A DNA stretch of 64,000 nt from a bacterium (GTDB lineage Bacteria > Chloroflexota > Chloroflexia > Chloroflexales > Kallotenuaceae). The stretch is from contig JADDQE010000117.1 in NCBI GenBank assembly GCA_016781525.1, forward strand, positions 4,039 through 68,038, read 5' to 3'. This document shows positions 2,851 through 62,307 of the stretch, one piece after another. A program made the translations under genes and the position numbers. How positions within the stretch are numbered: position 1 is the first letter of the stretch; every line of letters starts with the position of its first letter. The notes beneath the pieces are model-generated. The model made no database searches and was not told the origin of the DNA. It worked only from the letters and a program-made list of their open reading frames with translations.

Positions 2851-2962
2851 CTCTCATCTTCCAGAAAGCTCTGCCGGAGTTAGCACCAGTCACAGCCAGT
2901 CATTGCCTGTGTGGTTGCCGGGGTTTCATCGGGCCGGTCCCTCCACCCCTCTGGATAAGAGC
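2851..2962 (-). promoter_or_regulatory. SAM-I (S-box) riboswitch aptamer
   Basis: minus strand reads CTCTTATCCAGAGGGGTGGAGGGACCGGCCCGATGAAACCCCGGCAACC...GGTGCTAACTCCGGCAGAG...GAAGATGAGAG, matching the remembered S-box core nearly position by position. Confidence 0.9.
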
Positions 2963-18026: not shown

Positions 18027-18100
18027 TGGCTGGCGGACTAGGATTCGAACCTAGATTGACGGATCCAAAGTCCGCAGTCCTACCATTGGACGATCCGCCA
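18027..18100 (-). tRNA. tRNA-Gln (anticodon UUG), CCA encoded
   Basis: hand-folded cloverleaf: acceptor TGGCGGA/TCCGCCA, D arm GTCC-AATGGTA-GGAC, anticodon arm GCGGA-CTTTGGA-TCCGT, T arm CTAGG-TTCGAAT-CCTAG, discriminator G, CCA. Confidence 0.9.
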
Positions 18101-38247: not shown

Positions 38248-39570
38248 ATGCACATTGCGATCATCGGCGGCGGCTTCGCTGGCCTTACGGCGGCCCATGA
38301 GCTGCGGGCTGCCGGGCAGCAAGTAACGGTGTTCGAGGCGGGACCGCAGCTTGGCGGTCTTGCCGCCGGCTTTAAGGCGCCCGGCTGGGATTGGGCGCTT
38401 GAAAAGTTCTATCACCATATTTTCCAAACTGATAAAGCAATCATCGGCCTGGCCAAAACCATCGGCGCGGGTGAGATGCTCTTCTTCAACCAGCAGACGA
38501 CCGCGTTCCTATGTCCCGAGCACGGGGCGCACCCAGTCAGCATCCCCGGCATTCTCACTTTCCCGCATCTGCCGTTGATTGACCGCCTGCGGTATGGGCT
38601 AACACTGGCGCAATTCAAGCTCCGACGCGACTGGCAGCGGCTGGAGCAAACGACGGCCGAGCGCCATCTACGGCGATGGTCGGGCGACCGCGCGTACAAG
38701 CAGTACTGGGAGCCGCTGCTCGTAGGTAAGTTTGGACCGTATGCTGGCGAGGTAAACGCCGCATGGATCTGGGCTCGGATCAAGACCCGTTCGTTTAAGC
38801 TCGGGTATTTTAAGGGAGGCTTCCAAGCCTTCGCGGACGCGCTTGGCTCATATATCGAGCGCCAGGGTGCAACGATTCACTTAGCGCAGCCGGTACAGCG
38901 CGTCGAGCGGGCTGATGATGGGACCTGGACGGTTGATGCCGGTGGCGCTCCAAGGCGCTTCGATCGGGTGATTGTTGCATCCGCACCCGGCGTGTTGACC
39001 AAGCTTGTACCAAGCCTGCCACGTGACTACACTGCCCGTATGACGGCACTGAAGTCGATGGGTGCGGTGGTGATGGTCGTTGCGCTGCGGCAACAGCTGC
39101 TCACGAACGGGGTCTACTGGTACATGCCGCCTAAAGAGCACTTTCCGTATCTGGCGCTGGTGGAGCATACCAATATGATCTCGCCTCAGCATTATGGCGG
39201 AGATCGGCTGATCTACTGTGGCGACTACCTCCCGGCGGACCATCGCTACTTCACCATGCCGGACGAGGATGTTAAGCAGGAATGGCTATCGGCACTTCCA
39301 CAAGTAAATCGGGATTTCCACCCTGGCTGGATTAAGCAAAGCTGGCTCTTCCGCGAGCGTTATGCTCAGCCGGTCGTTCCTGTCGACCATTCGCGCAATG
39401 TACCGTCGCTGCGAACGCCGTTAGACGGTCTTTACTTTGCCAGCTTGGCGCACGTTTATCCTTGGGACCGGGGGACAAATTTCGCGGTCGAGCTTGGGCA
39501 GCGCGTGGCGCGTGAGGTGCTAGAACAAGAGGCTAGGGGCGAGAACAAAGAACAAAGGACAGAGATCTGA
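38248..39570 (+). CDS. FAD/NAD(P)-dependent oxidoreductase, amine-oxidase/phytoene-desaturase-like
   Basis: MHIAIIGGGFAGLTAAHEL..VFEAGPQLGG dinucleotide fold; 3 nt after upstream stop; last 16 or so codons lie in a heptamer array. Confidence 0.8.
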   Translation: MHIAIIGGGFAGLTAAHELRAAGQQVTVFEAGPQLGGLAAGFKAPGWDWALEKFYHHIFQTDKAIIGLAKTIGAGEMLFFNQQTTAFLCPEHGAHPVSIPGILTFPHLPLIDRLRYGLTLAQFKLRRDWQRLEQTTAERHLRRWSGDRAYKQYWEPLLVGKFGPYAGEVNAAWIWARIKTRSFKLGYFKGGFQAFADALGSYIERQGATIHLAQPVQRVERADDGTWTVDAGGAPRRFDRVIVASAPGVLTKLVPSLPRDYTARMTALKSMGAVVMVVALRQQLLTNGVYWYMPPKEHFPYLALVEHTNMISPQHYGGDRLIYCGDYLPADHRYFTMPDEDVKQEWLSALPQVNRDFHPGWIKQSWLFRERYAQPVVPVDHSRNVPSLRTPLDGLYFASLAHVYPWDRGTNFAVELGQRVAREVLEQEARGENKEQRTEI

Positions 39571-39631
39571 CAGCTGGCGGCTGAGTACTGAGCGCTAAGA
39601 GCTGATGACTGATACCTGAAGCCTGACAGCC
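39520..39631. repeat. heptanucleotide tandem array (about 16 units, AGAACAA / AGNNCTG type; CTGA every 7 or 14 nt)
   Basis: in phase from 39541: gagaaca aagaaca aaggaca gagatct gacagct ggcggct gagtact gagcgct aagagct gatgact gatacct gaagcct gacagcc. Confidence 0.8.
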
Positions 39632-39660
39632 ACCGCCCACTGTCTCCGACTGGAAATGAT

Positions 39661-41019: not shown

Positions 41020-41066
41020 CAGCGTGCAGCGCGTTCCGGCATACGACCAGGGAGCAAACAGCAACT

Positions 41067-46110: not shown

Positions 46111-46123
46111 AGCTCCCGCAGCT

Positions 46124-46281
46124 CCTCATCTGTCAGACCACGTCTGGCGGAATTGGCACCCTTCTCGAAAAGTGAAGGAGGAGCGCTAAAGGATGCATGT
46201 GTCTTCAGCCTTCCGCCTTCATCGTTTCGTCAGGGTTGCCGGGGCTTCATCGGGCCGGTCCCTCTGCCCCTCTGGATGAGG
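46124..46281 (-). promoter_or_regulatory. SAM-I (S-box) riboswitch aptamer
   Basis: minus strand CCTCATCCAGAGGGGCAGAGGGACCGGCCCGATGAAGCCCCGGCAACC...GGTGCCAATTCCGCCAGA...GATGAGG; near-identical core to the copy at 2851-2962. Confidence 0.9.
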
Positions 46282-46299
46282 TTTATTCGATTTTGATGC

Positions 46300-52386: not shown

Positions 52387-52412
52387 CATACGCTAGTTGA
52401 TATCTACGCGAA

Positions 52413-52482
52413 AGAACAAAGGCTAGCGCAGGCTACGACCTTTGTTCTTTCTTTTTGTTTGTTCTTTCTTTTTGTAGAACAA
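52413..52482 (+). terminator. greA terminator built from AGAACAA-type units
   Basis: AGAACAAAGG-16 nt-CCTTTGTTCT (52413-52448), then T-rich direct repeat GTTCTTTCTTTTTGT x2 (52444-58, 52461-75). Confidence 0.7.
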
Positions 52483-54751: not shown

Positions 54752-54817
54752 CGGGCCTTCGATAAAATGTGCAGCGTGCGTAGTGACATGCGCCACCCTG
54801 CATCCTCTTCACAAAAT

Positions 54818-54849
54818 AAAGACGCGTCGCAAACCGGCGACGCGTCTTT
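54818..54849. terminator. bidirectional terminator between convergent genes
   Basis: perfect 13-bp stem AAAGACGCGTCGC-aaaccg-GCGACGCGTCTTT with A/T runs on both sides. Confidence 0.75.
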
Positions 54850-54858
54850 ATCATTTAA

Positions 54859-57679: not shown

Positions 57680-58039
57680 ATGGCTCGCGTTAAGCGCGGT
57701 ACGATGGTGCGCAAGCGCCATAACAAACTACTTCGTCAAGCTAAAGGCTATCGCGGCAATCGTAGCCGCAACTACAAGGTCGCGCATGAGCAGGTGATGC
57801 GCTCGCTGGCGTACGCGTACCGCCACCGCCGCACCAAGAAGCGCGATATGCGCCGGCTCTGGATCGTGCGCATCAATGCGGCTGCCCGGCAGCATGGCTT
57901 GAGCTATAGCCGCTTCATGAGCGGCCTCAAGCTGGTCGGCATCGCCATGGATCGCAAGCAGCTCGCGGATCTCGCGGTCCGTGATGCGACGACCTTTGGT
58001 CAGCTCGCGACTCAAGTGCAACGAGTGATCAGCGCCTAG
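57680..58039 (+). CDS. rplT: 50S ribosomal protein L20
   Basis: [26 protein letters not shown].. Confidence 0.95.
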
Positions 58040-58040
58040 G

Positions 58041-58103
58041 AGAAGATAGAACAAAGAACATAGACCGGCGACAGCTCGTCTGTTCTATGCTCTTTGTTCT
58101 TCG
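58041..58103 (+). terminator. rplT terminator hairpin built from inverted heptamer half-arrays
   Basis: AGAAGAT AGAACAA AGAACAT AGACCGG .. TCTGTTC TATGCTC TTTGTTC; long imperfect stem. Confidence 0.6.
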
Positions 58104-58106
58104 CAT

Positions 58107-58895
58107 GTGATCAGTAGTCTCAAAAATCCCTCCATCAAACGTCTCCGCTCGTTGATGACCAACCGCAAGGATCGTCGTCACGAGCGGTTGTTTGTTATCG
58201 AGGGCGTGCGGCTGGTCGAGGAGGCTGTGCGCTCCGGTGCGAGATTCGCCCTGACCGTGTATAATCCGGAGCAGTTAGGGACGACTGACCGGGGAGCGGC
58301 GCTCCAAGCGGCTCTAAGCTCCATGCCCAATACCTACGCTGCACCGGCCGAGGTGATCGAGGCGATCACAGACACGGTCTCTCCGCAGGGTGTTGTGGCG
58401 GCGGTCGGATGGCCCGAGCTGGAGCCCGGCCGTAGCGGTGTGCAGCTGGTCTTAGATGCCGTGCAAGACCCTGGGAATGTCGGCACGCTGCTTCGCACGG
58501 CAGAGGCGACGGGAGTCAGCCAGGTCATCTGTTTGGCAGGGTCGGCCGATGTGTACAGCCCCAAGGTTGTCCGAGCGGCAATGGGCGCGCATTTTCGCCT
58601 CCCAATCGTGCAAGATGTGGACTGGGATGAGGCTCCTAGTTTGCTGATCGCCGCCGACAATGTGTATGCCGCGGTAGCCAACGCGACGATGCCCTACTAC
58701 GCGGCAGACTGGCGACAGCCGTCCGCTCTGGTAGTTGGGAACGAGGCAAATGGTGTCAGCGACGTGGGCTTGGCAGTGGCGACAAAGCACATCAGCATTC
58801 CGATGGTTGGGCCCGTCGAATCATTGAACGCGGCAGTCGCCGGCAGCGTCATTTTGTTCGAGGCGCTCCGCCAGCGCAAGCTAGGCCGAAGTTAG
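58107..58895 (+). CDS. TrmH/SpoU family RNA 2'-O-methyltransferase (RlmB-like)
   Basis: GTG start; LVLDAVQDPGNVGTLLRTAEA, LVVGNEANGVS, IPMVGPVESLNAAVA motifs. Confidence 0.85.
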   Translation: MISSLKNPSIKRLRSLMTNRKDRRHERLFVIEGVRLVEEAVRSGARFALTVYNPEQLGTTDRGAALQAALSSMPNTYAAPAEVIEAITDTVSPQGVVAAVGWPELEPGRSGVQLVLDAVQDPGNVGTLLRTAEATGVSQVICLAGSADVYSPKVVRAAMGAHFRLPIVQDVDWDEAPSLLIAADNVYAAVANATMPYYAADWRQPSALVVGNEANGVSDVGLAVATKHISIPMVGPVESLNAAVAGSVILFEALRQRKLGRS

Positions 58896-58899
58896 AGCG

Positions 58900-59178
58900 A
58901 GGCATCAGGCTCCAGGCGTGAGGTATCAGGGGACCGAATGCTGCCTGAGACTGGAGCCTGTTACCTGAAAGCTGAAACTTATACAGGCATTGACGAAGCG
59001 AGGATAGCAGGTAGGCCGCCAGAGAGCGCGAGGCCAGAGGCTGAAAGCCAGCGCCGGGACCGCCACTATCCGTTCCCTTCCGAGCCGACGAGTGAACACG
59101 GGAAAAGAACACAGAAGAGGGAACGCAGAACAGGAAGCACCAAGCTGTTCTATGTTCGCTGCTCTCTGCTCTCCTCGT
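58900..59178. repeat. about 280 nt of locally phased heptamer blocks
   Basis: AGGCATC AGGCTCC AGGCGTG AGGTATC AGGGGAC (58900-34); CTGGAGC CTGTTAC CTGAAAG CTGAAAC (58951-78); GCGCGAG GCCAGAG GCTGAAA GCCAGCG (59026-53); AGAACAC AGAAGAG GGAACGC AGAACAG (59106-33); CTGTTCT ATGTTCG CTGCTCT CTGCTCT (59145-72). Confidence 0.75.
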
Positions 59179-59194
59179 TACTAGCTCGCTCCGG

Positions 59195-59310
59195 TTGCCC
59201 GCCGTTATTGGGCTTCGAGAGCGCATGGAACCGCGATGAGCAGTCTGTGCGCTAAACCAGGGTGGTACCGCGGGCCGCACCTCGTCCCTGACGAGCGTGC
59301 GGCTTTTTGT
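59195..59310 (+). promoter_or_regulatory. T-box leader, 3' half (F-box, Stem III, T-box sequence, terminator) controlling pheS
   Basis: CCGTTA at 59202-07; AGCGCA..TGCGCT stem; AAACCAGGGTGGTACCGCG at 59254-72; terminator GCCGCACCTCGT-ccctg-ACGAGCGTGCGGC-TTTTT (59274-59308). Confidence 0.8.
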
Positions 59311-59370
59311 ATTAAGAATCAAGGGCTCGAGCTGCTATTCTCAGCCCTCAGCCGATGACGAGGAGGAAGC

Positions 59371-60408
59371 ATGATCGAACAGCTAGAACTCGCGGAAAAG
59401 CAGGCGCTGGCCGAGCTTGGCGGCGTCAGCAACCTTGACGCACTACGCGCGTGGAAAAGCACGTATCTGGCCAAATCGGGGCCGCTCGCCGAGATTAGTC
59501 GGGGGATGGGTAAGCTGAGTGCCGAAGAGCGGCCACAGGTAGGCCAGCGAATCAATGCGGCCAAGCAAGCGCTGCAGCGGTCGTACGATGAGCTAGAGCA
59601 ACGGCTGACGAGCGAAGCCCGCGTGGCAGAGCTGGAGCGGGATCGCGTCGACGTAACATTGCCTGGGCGACCGGTACACGCGGGCCGGCTGCATCTTGTG
59701 ACGCAGGTGTTGCGCGATATCGAGCGCGTCTTCGGGACGATGGGCTTCACGGTGTGGGAAAGCCCCGAGGTTGAAACTGACGAGTACAACTACGGGCTGC
59801 TTAACTTCCCCGAGGACCATCCCGCGCGCGATATGCAGGATACCTTCTTCGTCAAGATGCCTCCCGGAAGCCCAAAGGTTGTGCTGCGCTCACACACCTC
59901 CCCTGGCCAGATTCGGGCGATGCATCGCTTCGCACCGGAGCCGGTGCGGGTGTTGCTGCCCGGTAAGTGCTATCGCTCCGAGCAAGTCACGGCGCGCCAT
60001 GAGATGCAGTTTACCCAGTTCGAGTTCTTAGCGGTCGGGCGCAATATTACGATGGGTGATCTCAAGGGAATGCTGGACGCCTTTGCCAAGGGGATCTATG
60101 GCGCCGAGACCGAGGTGCGCCTACGGCCAAGCTACTTCCCGTTCACCGAGCCGAGCGCCGAGATGGACGTGTCGTGCAACTTATGCAAGGGCAAAGGCTG
60201 CCGGATGTGTAAGTACACCGGCTGGCTCGAGATTGGCGGCTGCGGAATGGTTCATCCGGTTGTGCTGCGCAACGGCGGATACGATCCCGCCGAGTTCAGC
60301 GGCTTCGCCGGCGGCTTCGGTCCCGAGCGCATCGCCATTATGAAGTATGGCATCGACGACATTCGCTGGTTCAACAGCGCTGACCTGCGCTTTTTGGAGC
60401 AATTCTAG
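59371..60408 (+). CDS. pheS: phenylalanine--tRNA ligase alpha subunit
   Basis: 345 aa full-length PheS; SD GAGGAGGAAG. Confidence 0.95.
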   Translation: MIEQLELAEKQALAELGGVSNLDALRAWKSTYLAKSGPLAEISRGMGKLSAEERPQVGQRINAAKQALQRSYDELEQRLTSEARVAELERDRVDVTLPGRPVHAGRLHLVTQVLRDIERVFGTMGFTVWESPEVETDEYNYGLLNFPEDHPARDMQDTFFVKMPPGSPKVVLRSHTSPGQIRAMHRFAPEPVRVLLPGKCYRSEQVTARHEMQFTQFEFLAVGRNITMGDLKGMLDAFAKGIYGAETEVRLRPSYFPFTEPSAEMDVSCNLCKGKGCRMCKYTGWLEIGGCGMVHPVVLRNGGYDPAEFSGFAGGFGPERIAIMKYGIDDIRWFNSADLRFLEQF

Positions 60409-62232
60409 TTGGTACGTGCAATCCACAGCCGGCAGATTGACCTTCGTTCCGGGCGTGCACTTCACGCCGCGCGATGGCTGCTCTGTGCCATCGCAGGCGC
60501 CCACGTCGGGTTAGCTTTGTGGTGGAGCCTCGTCGTGCCGCTGGGCGAAGGGCCGGATGAGCCAGGGCACTTTCGGTATGCCTTGTTCTTGGCGCGTCAC
60601 GGGCAGATACCGGTGCAGCATGACGATCCGCACCAGAGCGACGTTCCGGGGGAAGGCCACCAGCCCCCGGTCGCGTACTGGCTCATGCAGCCGGCCGTAC
60701 GCTGGTTACCGCCTGCGGAGCAAGTGCTGGAGATTGGACCTGATGCGCGGTTTTTGCACGCCGGCGGCGACCGGCCAAATGCCTACTTCCGCTCATCGGC
60801 AGATATCTGGCCATATCATGGTGCTGCACGGGCCTGGCATCTTGTGCGTGCCATCTCGGCCTTGCTCGGCGGTATCACCGTAACTGTGACCTATGCCCTC
60901 GCTCGACGCTGCTTCGGCCAAGGGATGCAAGATGGTGGGTGGGTCGCGCTTGCCGCGGCTGCTCTAGTTGCGCTTAATCCCCAGTTCATTTTCGCCCATG
61001 CGCTTGCGTCAAACGACCCGCTGCTGATTGCCCTGTCGAGCATGTTGCTGTATGCATGCGTAAGCATTGTGACTGAGGCAGGCCATGGTCGTCGATGGGT
61101 GATCGCGTCTGGTCTGTTGCTTGGCCTGATGCTGATAACCAAGCAAAGCGCCCTCGCGCTCGTGCCGCTGCCATTTCTAGCGCTCATCCTCCGCGGCAAC
61201 CTCGGGCGAGCTGTAGTCGACGGGCTGATTGTGGCGGTCCTTGCCGTGGTGCTTGCAGGTTGGTGGTACCTGCGCAACTTTCGGCTCTACGACGACCCGC
61301 TCGGCTTAGCTGCGTTCCAAGAGGTTTTTGCCACGGGCGATTTCCGTCTGTCATCGTGGCAGCACTGGCGGAGCGGTCTATGGAGCTTGCTGCGCTCGAG
61401 CTGGGGTAACTTCGGTTGGCTAAGCCTGCCACTCAACGACGGAGCGTACTATGTCGTTGCGACGTTTCTAGTGCTTGGGTTAATCGGGCTTGTGGTCACC
61501 GTCGGCCGCGGATGGTGGACGGGTCGTGGCCGGATTGCCCTCCTGCTCGTCACGGCGATTGTACTTGTCTTTGTGTGGACAGTCGTCTTCGCGCGAGTGG
61601 CGGGCATGGTTGCGTGGCAGGGTCGTTTCCTGTTCCCCGCCGTCTCGGCGTTCGCCCTGCTGTTGGCCTGTGGCTTAAGCGTGATTCTCCCTGGACGAGC
61701 TGCACTTTGGTCATTTGTGGGTCTGCTTGGCGTCCTAGCCATCACCTTACCACCGGCCTTCGTTAGCCGCGCCTACCCAAGCTATGTCGAGCCGACACAG
61801 ACCCCCGATTTCGGCAACGTCTACGGGCGCTTCGACGTCGGCTGGAAACGTGGCGTCGAGCTGCGAAATGTCGAATTTCCAGACGAGGCGATGACAGGGG
61901 CTACGATCGACGTCGTGCTTACCTGGCACGCGCTAGAGCAGATGGATCGACGCTGGAGCGTCTTTATTCATCTCGTCGACGATGCGGAGAACATCATCGC
62001 CGAGAGTAATGCTCAGCCACTGCAGGGCACCTTTCCGACCAGCAGCTGGGTCCGCGGCGACTGGATTCGCGATTCGCACCAGCTTGATCTCGAGAGTACA
62101 CCTCCAGGCCAATATCGGCTCTGGATCGGCCTTTGGGATCCCGCTTCAGGAGCTCGTCTGGGCATGTATGACCGCACGAATACGCCTGCAGGTGACCGTG
62201 TCGAAGTCAGATCAATAACGATTAGGGACTAG
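60409..62232 (+). CDS. GT-C-fold membrane glycosyltransferase-like protein (GT39/ArnT/PMT-like) with C-terminal soluble domain
   Basis: 607-aa ORF, many TM helices, EGPDEPGHFRYALFLARHG loop; TTG start abuts pheS TAG; no in-frame ATG/GTG before the first TM helix. Confidence 0.7.
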   Translation: MVRAIHSRQIDLRSGRALHAARWLLCAIAGAHVGLALWWSLVVPLGEGPDEPGHFRYALFLARHGQIPVQHDDPHQSDVPGEGHQPPVAYWLMQPAVRWLPPAEQVLEIGPDARFLHAGGDRPNAYFRSSADIWPYHGAARAWHLVRAISALLGGITVTVTYALARRCFGQGMQDGGWVALAAAALVALNPQFIFAHALASNDPLLIALSSMLLYACVSIVTEAGHGRRWVIASGLLLGLMLITKQSALALVPLPFLALILRGNLGRAVVDGLIVAVLAVVLAGWWYLRNFRLYDDPLGLAAFQEVFATGDFRLSSWQHWRSGLWSLLRSSWGNFGWLSLPLNDGAYYVVATFLVLGLIGLVVTVGRGWWTGRGRIALLLVTAIVLVFVWTVVFARVAGMVAWQGRFLFPAVSAFALLLACGLSVILPGRAALWSFVGLLGVLAITLPPAFVSRAYPSYVEPTQTPDFGNVYGRFDVGWKRGVELRNVEFPDEAMTGATIDVVLTWHALEQMDRRWSVFIHLVDDAENIIAESNAQPLQGTFPTSSWVRGDWIRDSHQLDLESTPPGQYRLWIGLWDPASGARLGMYDRTNTPAGDRVEVRSITIRD

Positions 62233-62292
62233 GCTGAGGGACTAGAAATTAGGGAGGAGCAGCTTGGCTCTCGTCCCTAGCTCCTAGCTCCT
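62223..62292. repeat. heptamer array across the stop codon of the GT-C gene
   Basis: TAGGGAC TAGGCTG AGGGACT AGAAATT AGGGAGG AGCAGCT TGGCTCT CGTCCCT AGCTCCT AGCTCCT. Confidence 0.6.
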
Positions 62293-62307
62293 CTATATGG
62301 AGGTATT

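What the first reader, a model, noticed from the sequence alone, without database searches (positions are those of the whole stretch)
58900..59178. About 280-nt tract of locally phased heptanucleotide repeats fills the trmH-pheS spacer
Cutting the spacer into 7-mers from 58900 gives runs of units that share fixed positions.
- AGGCATC AGGCTCC AGGCGTG AGGTATC AGGGGAC: AGG at 58900/07/14/21/28.
- CTGGAGC CTGTTAC CTGAAAG CTGAAAC: CTG at 58951/58/65/72.
- GCGCGAG GCCAGAG GCTGAAA GCCAGCG.
- AGAACAC AGAAGAG GGAACGC AGAACAG.
- An inverted half-array CTGTTCT ATGTTCG CTGCTCT CTGCTCT after an 11-nt gap, which can pair with the AGAACAG block.

The conserved part is 2-4 nt and the rest of each unit varies, so an ordinary repeat finder would probably miss it. 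The same unit type (AGAACAA / AGNNNNN / CTGANNN) recurs at 39.5, 52.4, 54.27, 58.04 and 62.2 kb, always starting within a few nt of a stop codon. I saw none at the intergenic sites I checked in the first 39 kb. The only comparable thing I know is the STRR heptamer family of heterocystous cyanobacteria, and this gene content does not look cyanobacterial. Possible roles are modular terminators or RNA stabilisers, protein-binding arrays, or slippage-prone spacers.
Basis: seen in the sequence. Interest (0 to 1): 0.7.

Follow-up and report, generated by a model that had tools for sequence, protein, structure and literature searches.

The report
Heptamer repeats around a T-box riboswitch
The 7-base periodicity is real, but the spacer is mainly a phenylalanine-sensing T-box riboswitch controlling pheS, with slippage-prone heptanucleotide repeat arrays in front of it and inside one of its stems; both are known kinds of element.

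Summary
Lag-7 self-identity in 58900-59178 is 0.42 against 0.26 in dinucleotide shuffles (z = 6.2), and no other lag stands out except 14.

The signal comes from two blocks only:
- The 85 nt after the trmH stop: AGGNNNN x5 plus an inverted CTGNNNN x4.
- A hairpin at 59106-59172: AGAACAN-type x4 against its complement x4.

The leader has a UUC specifier, the AGGGUGGUACCGCG box and a terminator with a U-run, and it is conserved with covariation in 11 Chloroflexota orthologues. The AGAACAN hairpin is the apical extension of T-box Stem II.

The arrays are real simple-sequence repeats. Two assemblies that encode the same PheS differ by two exact 7-nt indels, both inside the arrays. A sister MAG has a very different unit number at the 39.5 kb array. 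More distant relatives lack the arrays.

This is therefore a new member of a known kind in a Chloroflexia MAG. Whether the arrays have a function is untested.

The parts
58900..58934 (+). Heptamer array AGGNNNN x5, starting 5 nt after the stop codon (58893-58895) of the SpoU/TrmH-family methyltransferase gene
   Evidence: 58896-58980 lag-7 z = +5.6. Hypervariable among orthologous spacers.
58951..58978 (+). Heptamer array CTGNNNN x4, an inverted partner of the AGG array. CUGGAGCCUG pairs with CAGGCUCCAG.
   Evidence: fold -31.9 kcal/mol, z = -2.0. In L084 versus L085 the orthologous array differs by exactly one unit, ACCTGAT.
58986..59086 (+). T-box Stem I, with AG bulge at 59021-59025, distal loop GGCUGAAAGCC at 59039-59049 and specifier codon UUC (Phe) at 59073-59075
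   Evidence: RF00230, full-length match. UUC is invariant in 11 orthologues, and 6 pairs show compensatory changes. No period-7 signal (z = +0.1).
59087..59189 (+). T-box Stem II, a 103-nt hairpin with a conserved base and an apex built from heptamer arrays
   Evidence: -35.9 kcal/mol, z about -2.8. Lag-7 z = +5.7. Orthologues all have a 94-112 nt Stem II.
59106..59133 (+). Purine-rich arm: AGAACAC AGAAGAG GGAACGC AGAACAG
   Evidence: (Tandem Repeats Finder (TRF), period 14), 13, 61
59145..59172 (+). Complementary arm CTGTTCT ATGTTCG CTGCTCT CTGCTCT, after an 11-nt loop
   Evidence: The orthologous arm in L085 carries one extra unit, TTCTCGG, relative to L084.
59190..59253 (+). T-box Stem IIA/B region (59190-59207) and Stem III (59217-59253)
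   Evidence: Stem III has 7 pairs with compensatory changes in 6 orthologues.
59259..59310 (+). T-box sequence AGGGUGGUACCGCG (59259-59272), with the antiterminator overlapping an intrinsic terminator, GCCGCACCUCGUC/GACGAGCGUGCGGC plus UUUUU (59274-59310)
59371..60408 (+). pheS, the regulated gene
   Evidence: (PF02912, PF01409)
39521..39632 (+). Strongest array in the window: 16 units in a single phase (TAGAACA...AGAACAA x2...then CTGANNN-type x9). It encodes the last 15 codons of the amine-oxidase ORF and carries its stop codon.
   Evidence: maximum lag-7 identity 0.74; Pfam domain ends at residue 425 of 440; unit number very different in L090, absent in L092
52410..52475 (+). greA 3' hairpin AAAGAACAAAGG/CCUUUGUUCUUU followed by a U-run, plus a 17-nt direct repeat
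   Evidence: (z = -4.2). The stem is conserved in L084 and L095.
58045..58102 (+). Hairpin directly after the rplT stop, with arms made of AGAACAA-type heptamers
   Evidence: (-26 kcal/mol, z = -3.9; z = +4.7). An orthologous heptamer hairpin is present in L084.
62229..62300 (+). Hairpin overlapping the stop of the PMT_2 gene, with arms of (A)GGGACT / CCTAGCT heptamers
   Evidence: z = +3.2

Best explanation
The tract is a composite of two known kinds of element.

**1. A Phe-specific T-box riboswitch (58981-59310).** It controls pheS by transcription attenuation. Uncharged tRNA-Phe reads the UUC specifier in Stem I, and its acceptor end pairs with the UGGU bulge of the T-box sequence. That stabilises the antiterminator over the terminator at 59274-59310.

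**2. Degenerate heptanucleotide simple-sequence repeats.** They occupy the two parts of the spacer that are free to vary:
- the 85 nt between the trmH stop and the T-box, as an inverted AGGNNNN/CTGNNNN pair;
- the apex of T-box Stem II, as an inverted AGAACAN/NTGTTCT pair.

The arrays grow and shrink by 7-nt slippage and then decay by point mutation. That is why only 2-4 positions per unit stay fixed and the phase is only local.

What is shown:
- the periodicity;
- the T-box anatomy and its conservation;
- the 7-nt unit-number polymorphism;
- the rapid turnover among relatives;
- the ability of the inverted arrays to fold.

What is inferred:
- Slippage is a replication event.
- The two arms are kept complementary by selection for the hairpin or by arm-to-arm template switching.
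- The post-stop-codon hairpins act as terminators or 3'-end protectors.
- The Stem II extension is tolerated because it points away from the tRNA-contacting base of Stem II.
For: **T-box**
- RF00230 matches 58981-59292 over the whole model (1-219), E = 3.5e-10.
- The AGGGTGGTACCGCG box is exact.
- UUC is invariant in 11 orthologous leaders.
- Compensatory pairs occur in Stem I (6) and Stem III (7), and the terminator is conserved.
- 5 of 7 Chloroflexota relatives score 100-106 bits, above the gathering score, directly upstream of pheS.

**Periodicity**
-.

**Slippage**
- L084 and L085 encode the same PheS and are 99.7% identical over 3239 columns. They differ by 10 substitutions, all in coding DNA.
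- They also differ by 3 indels, all in the arrays of the trmH-pheS spacer: 7 nt (ACCTGAT), 7 nt (TTCTCGG) and 1 nt.
- At 39.5 kb the window has 16 phased units. The sister MAG locus L090 has a phased tract of about 175 nt with a 35-nt higher-order duplication. L092 has a 29-nt spacer with no array.

**Hairpins**
- One search gives fold z-scores of -2.0 to -4.2.
- The Stem II apex is a long hairpin in all orthologues. In L095 it is built from a different unit, GGATGNN.

**Literature**
- Heptanucleotide repeats are the most abundant class of long simple-sequence repeat in most prokaryotic genomes, and polymerase slippage has been proposed as the cause (PMC4679880 and PMC4692102, both citing Mrazek et al. 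2007).
- Inverted heptamer arrays are noted in Xanthomonas (PMC4692102).
Against: - The window's T-box scores 50.6 bits, below Rfam's gathering score of 93. This is because of the 79-nt Stem II insertion. Close relatives score 40-48 bits.
- The Stem II 3' strand reads ACUAG where relatives have AGUAG, so the S-turn may be weakened.
- No sigma-70-like promoter was found between trmH and the T-box, so the transcription start is unknown.
- No transcript data exist for any hairpin. Apart from the T-box terminator (59274-59310), only the greA hairpin has a U-run.
- The 39.5 kb array does not fold better than shuffles (z = +0.5).
- The unit AGAAC(A/C)N recurs in four spacers of the window and in relatives at other spacers. 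Slippage of arbitrary local heptamers does not by itself explain this.
- Arrays are absent from all 26 spacers in the first 39 kb, which is unexplained.
- Copy-number differences come from metagenome assemblies. The arrays are shorter than a read, but read-level confirmation was not possible.
Confidence: 0.8

Rival explanations
1. The arrays are selected functional RNA modules. On this view the post-stop-codon hairpins are terminators without a U-tract or 3'-end stabilisers, the heptamer phasing is a by-product of how they are built, and function rather than mutation bias explains where they sit.
For: - Arrays begin 0-25 nt after stop codons.
- Four of them fold significantly better than shuffles.
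- The greA hairpin has a U-run, and its AGAACAAAGG stem is conserved down to relatives with 75% PheS identity.
- A heptamer hairpin sits at the orthologous rplT-trmH position in L084.
Against: - Relatives with 81% PheS identity lack arrays at rplT-trmH and PMT-pheT.
- L092 has no array at all in its 29-nt spacer.
- The 39.5 kb array does not fold.
- The hairpins lie inside what looks like one operon (infC-rpmI-rplT-trmH-pheS-PMT-pheT), where full termination would be harmful.
- There are no transcript data.
Confidence: 0.3
2. The AGAACAA/TTGTTCT hairpins are a dispersed REP-like or MITE-like family that spreads by transposition or recombination, rather than arising locally.
For: - AGAACA is about 3-fold enriched in spacers, and 8 of its 9 intergenic copies lie in arrays in four different spacers.
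- AGAACNN arrays also appear at a different spacer in the 80% relative L092.
Against: - The copies share no flanks, terminal inverted repeats or target duplications.
- Units differ between arrays: AGGNNNN, CTGANNN, GGGACTA, and GGATGNN in L095.
- Differences between close relatives are exact 7-nt or 35-nt steps within an array, not presence or absence of a whole element.
Confidence: 0.1
3. The arrays are binding sites for a protein that reads 7-nt steps. Candidates are cold-shock proteins on single-stranded RNA or a ribbon-helix-helix repressor of the omega type on DNA heptads.
For: - CspB binds heptamer direct repeats, one protein per heptamer (as summarised in PMC4679880).
- Arrays of direct and inverted heptads are known operators for the omega repressor (own knowledge, not tested here).
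Against: - The conserved part of the unit differs from array to array, so no single sequence-specific reader fits.
- Arrays turn over rapidly among relatives.
- No candidate regulator is encoded next to them.
Confidence: 0.07
4. The pattern is chance, a compositional artefact, or the imprint of a protein-coding ORF. The public record annotates a 105-aa gene at 58938-59255.
For: An ORF of 105 aa on the + strand and one of 157 aa on the - strand span the tract.
Against: - Lag-7 z = 6.2 against dinucleotide shuffles, with no lag-3, lag-6 or lag-9 signal.
- The ORF has no Pfam match.
- 7-nt and 1-nt indels between near-identical strains would frameshift it.
- The region is a conserved T-box with covariation.
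Confidence: 0.01

Closest known systems
T-box leader (Rfam RF00230), Phe-specific, upstream of pheS(T)
   Same: - Stem I with a UUC specifier.
- A Stem II / IIA-B / III layout.
- The exact AGGGUGGUACCGCG box with a UGGU bulge.
- Competing antiterminator and terminator with a U-run.
- Location directly 5' of an aminoacyl-tRNA synthetase gene.
   Different: - Stem II is about 100 nt long, with an apex made of inverted heptamer arrays. This drops the Rfam score to 50.6 bits, below the gathering score of 93.
- The Stem II S-turn reads ACUA instead of AGUA in this genome.
- The base after the specifier is C rather than the usual purine.
   Same: - Tandem period of 7.
- Intergenic location, often next to start or stop codons.
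- Several unit types per genome.
- Sometimes arranged as inverted arrays that can form stem-loops.
- Length varies between close relatives.
   Different: - The host is a Chloroflexia MAG. A search for 'heptamer repeats' with 'Chloroflexi' found no paper.
- Units are much more degenerate, with only 2-4 of 7 positions fixed.
- The dominant unit is AGAAC(A/C)N, not a cyanobacterial or TAACTGA unit.
- One array pair sits inside a riboswitch stem.
REP/BIME-type extragenic palindromes and intrinsic terminator hairpins
   Same: Imperfect hairpins directly downstream of stop codons between co-oriented genes. One, at greA, has a U-run.
   Different: - There is no conserved family-wide palindrome sequence.
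- The arms are internally periodic at 7 nt.
- Most lack a U-tract.
- They are not conserved at orthologous sites in relatives with about 80% PheS identity.

Membership tests
T-box leader (RF00230) | Match to the covariance model at or above Rfam's gathering score (93 bits) | tested here: not met
   The window scores 50.6 bits with E = 3.5e-10, full-length over model positions 1-219. The shortfall is explained by a 79-nt insertion in Stem II. More distant Chloroflexota orthologues score 100-106 bits. Close relatives score 40-48 bits.
T-box leader (RF00230) | Specifier codon in the Stem I loop matches the amino acid of the downstream gene | tested here: met
   UUC (Phe) lies at 59073-59075, upstream of pheS. 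It is invariant in 11 orthologous leaders.
T-box leader (RF00230) | Conserved 14-nt T-box sequence with a UGGN bulge complementary to the tRNA 3' NCCA | tested here: met
   AGGGTGGTACCGCG lies at 59259-59272. UGGU fits an A73 discriminator base. The tRNA-Phe gene is not in the window, so the discriminator could not be checked.
T-box leader (RF00230) | Mutually exclusive antiterminator and terminator helices | tested here: met
   The terminator at 59274-59310 has a U-run. Its 5' strand overlaps the 3' strand of the antiterminator.
T-box leader (RF00230) | tRNA-dependent antitermination | not testable with these tools
   This needs in vitro transcription with uncharged tRNA-Phe.
Heptanucleotide simple-sequence repeat (long SSR) | Head-to-tail period of 7, above chance | tested here: met
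   Lag-7 z = 5.6-6.2 and only lags 7, 14 and 21 are raised. TRF detects parts of the arrays.
Heptanucleotide simple-sequence repeat (long SSR) | Unit-number polymorphism between close relatives | tested here: met
   Two exact 7-nt indels separate L084 and L085. Window and L090 differ by many units, including a 35-nt duplication.
Cyanobacterial STRR family (sensu stricto) | Canonical STRR unit sequences in a heterocystous cyanobacterium | tested here: not met
   The units here are AGGNNNN, CTGANNN and AGAACAN. The host is class Chloroflexia: PheS is 77% identical to Herpetosiphonaceae and 74% to Kallotenue. The resemblance is in kind, not in membership.
Intrinsic terminator | G+C-rich hairpin followed by a U-run at a transcript end | tested here: inconclusive
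   A U-run follows only the greA hairpin and the T-box terminator. The consensus scan misses both and reports nothing at the other arrays. No transcript data are available.

The most novel reading that the evidence does not exclude
Hairpins whose two arms are each phased arrays of degenerate heptamers may be a widespread and so far uncatalogued class of self-extending intergenic element. On this reading they grow by 7-nt slippage plus arm-to-arm template switching and preferentially colonise the apical loops of existing RNA hairpins.

Supporting observations:
- In this lineage they sit in T-box Stem II (with different units in the window, L084 and L095) and in P3 of a SAM riboswitch (46160-46236).
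- Among 80 unrelated pheS loci, period-7 segments are 2.5-3 times more frequent than periods 4, 5, 8, 10, 11 or 13. About a quarter of them have an inverted partner nearby.

If unit number changes the kinetics of riboswitch folding, the arrays would give heritable, reversible tuning of pheS attenuation.
Probability: 0.15. Interest if true: 0.65.

Novelty: new member of a known kind. Interest (0 to 1): 0.35.

Why it matters
- **Annotation.** A conserved Phe T-box falls below Rfam's threshold in this Chloroflexia clade because a repeat-built extension inflates Stem II. The public record instead carries a spurious 105-aa gene across it.
- **Repeat biology.** This extends the unexplained excess of heptanucleotide repeats to Chloroflexia. 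It also gives clean examples of exact 7-nt indels between near-identical strains, and of arrays living inside structured regulatory RNAs.
- **Limit.** It does not explain why the period is 7.

Tried and rejected
- **Rfam at gathering threshold** found no T-box in the window. The E-value scan did.
- **The consensus promoter/terminator scan** found nothing useful in the spacer and missed both the T-box terminator and the greA hairpin. It says nothing either way about the hairpins.
Closer relatives came from the protein search plus exact-protein look-ups.
- **The Kallotenue PheS look-up** found no record.
- **The any-frame ORF mask** used to classify segments in the 80 loci as intergenic left only 5% as non-ORF. 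The intergenic counts from that call are unreliable, and only the per-lag totals are used.
- **The coding-ORF and chance explanations** were rejected, as set out under the rival explanations.
- **A metagenome pattern scan for AGAACNN arrays** was considered and not run, because the hits would carry no taxonomy.
- **A genome-wide test on the other contigs of GCA_017884265.1** was not possible with these tools.

Full report
**Setting.** The window comes from contig JAGEKZ010000022.1 of MAG GCA_017884265.1. PheS is 77% identical to a Herpetosiphonaceae protein, 74% to Kallotenue papyrolyticum and 67-69% to Chloroflexaceae. The organism is therefore an uncultured member of class Chloroflexia. The local gene order is greA, lysS, orf71, fic, (ispB), infC, rpmI, rplT, SpoU/TrmH-family methyltransferase, pheS, a PMT_2 glycosyltransferase, pheT. 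The spacer in question runs from 58896 to 59370, which is 475 nt.

**Checking the observation.**
- Over 58900-59178 the fraction of positions identical to the base 7 nt downstream is 0.423, against 0.261 +/- 0.026 in 1000 dinucleotide-preserving shuffles (z = 6.2).
- Lags 14 and 21 are also raised (z = 4.0 and 2.2). No other lag from 2 to 20 exceeds z = 1.8.
- The signal is not uniform. It is z = +5.6 in 58896-58980, +0.1 in 58981-59088, +5.7 in 59089-59190 and +2.2 in 59191-59370.
The block GCGCGAG/GCCAGAG/GCTGAAA/GCCAGCG is not.
- Across the 43 spacers of the window, lag-7 z exceeds 3 in five and is 2.3-2.7 in three more, all between 39.5 and 62.3 kb. None of the 26 spacers before 39 kb exceeds 1.7. 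Control lags 4, 5, 8, 10 and 11 give 0-1 spacers above 3.
- Two of those eight spacers, 41020-41066 and 54752-54858, are not convincing arrays on inspection.
- The strongest array is at 39521-39632: 16 units in one phase, with a maximum local lag-7 identity of 0.74.

- A scan of the spacer against Rfam at a permissive threshold finds a full-length T-box leader at 58981-59292 (RF00230, model positions 1-219, 50.6 bits, E = 3.5e-10). It has a 79-nt insertion in the Stem II hairpin.
- The exact T-box sequence AGGGUGGUACCGCG is at 59259-59272.
- A strong terminator, GCCGCACCUCGUC...GACGAGCGUGCGGC followed by UUUUU, is at 59274-59310. Its 5' strand overlaps the antiterminator.
- The specifier position carries UUC, the Phe codon, at 59073-59075.
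- Five of seven more distant Chloroflexota relatives have a T-box above Rfam's gathering score (100-106 bits) directly upstream of pheS.
- UUC and the T-box sequence are invariant in all eleven aligned orthologues.
- Six Stem I pairs and seven Stem III pairs show compensatory changes, and the terminator is conserved.
- The AGAACAN/CTGTTCT hairpin is the apex of Stem II (59087-59189; -35.9 kcal/mol, z about -2.8).
- The 105-aa gene annotated over this region in the public record has no Pfam match and is spurious.

**What the arrays are.** Syntenic loci from relatives were recovered at 93% (L083), 86% (L084, L085), 81% (L086-L088) and 75% (L095) PheS identity. In the alignment of the trmH-pheS spacers the T-box core is nearly invariant, and the heptamer blocks are the hypervariable parts.

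The most informative pair is L084 and L085, which encode the same PheS:
- Over 3239 aligned columns they differ by 10 substitutions, all in coding DNA.
- They also differ by three indels, all inside the arrays of this spacer.
- One indel is a 7-nt unit, ACCTGAT, in the 3' arm in front of the T-box.
- One is a 7-nt unit, TTCTCGG, in the 3' arm of Stem II.
- The third is a single base.

The 39.5 kb site shows the same turnover:
- The window has three AGAACAA-type units followed by nine CTGANNN units.
- The sister MAG locus L090 (93% identical CNNM protein) has a phased tract of about 175 nt with a 35-nt (5 x 7) higher-order duplication and fewer CTGANNN units.
- L091 (87%) has almost nothing.
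- L092 (80%) has a 29-nt spacer.

In the window this array supplies the last 15 codons and the stop codon of the amine-oxidase ORF, whose Pfam domain ends at residue 425 of 440. These are the properties of slippage-prone simple-sequence repeats that then decay by point mutation. That explains the local phasing with only 2-4 fixed positions per unit.

**Hairpins.**
- The arrays often come as inverted pairs.
- The segments 58038-58108 (after rplT), 52405-52480 (after greA, with a U-run), 59086-59190 (Stem II) and 58896-58985 fold better than shuffles, with z = -3.9, -4.2, -2.9 and -2.0.
- The 39.5 kb array does not (z = +0.5).
- Every orthologue has a long Stem II of 94-112 nt. In L095 its apex is a near-perfect hairpin built from a different unit, GGATGNN/NNCATCC. 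The Stem II apex is therefore a recurrent home for such arrays.
- The greA hairpin stem AGAACAAAGG/CCUUUGUUCU is conserved down to 75% relatives.
- AGAAC(A/C)N is the preferred unit of the lineage. AGAACA is about 3-fold enriched in spacers, 8 of its 9 intergenic copies lie in arrays, and it recurs at another spacer in L092.

**Mechanism.**
- Shown: the periodicity, the T-box anatomy with covariation, the 7-nt polymorphism and the turnover among relatives.
- Inferred for the T-box, from established knowledge of T-box riboswitches: uncharged tRNA-Phe binding to the UUC specifier and to the UGGU bulge stabilises the antiterminator and allows transcription into pheS.
- Inferred for the arrays: they arise by replication slippage.
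- Also inferred: arm complementarity is kept by selection for pairing or by template switching between arms.
- Also inferred: the Stem II extension is tolerated because the functional S-turn and pseudoknot contacts are at the base of Stem II.
- Open: whether the post-stop-codon hairpins terminate or protect transcripts. No promoter-like site was found between trmH and the T-box, so the leader may be read from the infC operon.

**Comparison with what is known.**
- Over-representation of heptanucleotide repeats among long simple-sequence repeats in most prokaryotic genomes has been reported, with the suggestion that 7 nt reflects the polymerase-DNA contact. This is Mrazek et al. 2007 as summarised in PMC4679880 and PMC4692102.
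- Specific families include the tandem heptanucleotides of Calothrix and other cyanobacteria, Xanthomonas GGGAATC (with inverted pairs noted), Beggiatoaceae TAACTGA and Geobacter four- or five-unit heptamer elements (PMC4692102, PMC4679880, PMC2700814).
- A search for 'heptamer repeats' together with 'Chloroflexi' returned no paper.
- The present arrays are the same kind of thing with different, more degenerate units in a new lineage.
- They are not members of the cyanobacterial STRR family in the strict sense.
- T-box regulation of pheS is ordinary.

**Verdict.** The object is a Phe T-box riboswitch decorated with heptanucleotide repeat arrays, which makes it a new member of a known kind. The most interesting residue is the repeated appearance of heptamer-phased hairpins at the apices of structured RNAs and across unrelated phyla. 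That deserves a systematic survey.

Noticed in passing
window 46123-46282 (- strand), especially 46160-46236: A second riboswitch, SAM-I at 77.7 bits, carries a 71-nt insertion at the apex of P3. The 5' arm of the insertion reads UGAAGGC GGAAGGC UGAAGAC. Lag-7 z = +2.8 and lag-14 z = +3.1, and TRF reports CTTCAGC x2.7. This parallels the heptamer-built Stem II extension of the T-box.
   Followed up: partly
L003-L082 (80 pheS loci from many phyla), e.g. L053 14394-14548 and 19508-19655, L054 9719-10015, L041 9873-9994, L005 9914-9986, L080 3590-3723, L043 18958-19067: Hairpins whose two arms are phased arrays of degenerate heptamers occur in Desulfobacterota, Nitrospirota, Bacteroidota/Ignavibacteriota, Gammaproteobacteria and Anaerolineae. 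Each locus has its own unit, and several lie just upstream of pheS. Period-7 segments number 58, against 17-25 for periods 4, 5, 8, 10, 11 and 13. Fifteen of the 58 have an inverted partner nearby.
   Followed up: partly
window 58938-59255 (+); L001 9568-9885: The public record annotates a 105-aa hypothetical protein across the T-box leader. It has no Pfam match and would be frameshifted by the indels seen in relatives, so it is probably a spurious gene call.
   Followed up: yes
window 38248-39570 (+): The amine-oxidase ORF is 440 aa here and 430 aa in relatives. Its last 15 codons and its stop codon are supplied by the heptamer array, so array expansion has altered a protein C-terminus.
   Followed up: partly
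window 60409-62232 (+): A PMT_2-family glycosyltransferase gene sits between pheS and pheT and starts at the base after the pheS stop. This arrangement is conserved in all relatives down to 75% PheS identity.
   Followed up: no
window 1-39000 versus 39500-62300: All convincing heptamer arrays lie in the last 25 kb, between co-oriented + strand genes. None of the 26 spacers in the first 39 kb shows the signal, including several between co-oriented genes. No explanation was found.
   Followed up: partly
L092 (and L093, L094): The same window-based scan gives 113 windows with strong lag-8 identity in L092, against 21 for lag 7. This suggests an octamer array in an 80% relative. Its position was not examined.
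   Followed up: no
window 2851-2961 (-) and 18030-18100 (-): A second SAM-I riboswitch (86.4 bits) and a tRNA whose anticodon loop reads CUUUGGA (anticodon UUG, Gln). No tRNA-Phe gene is in the window.
   Followed up: no
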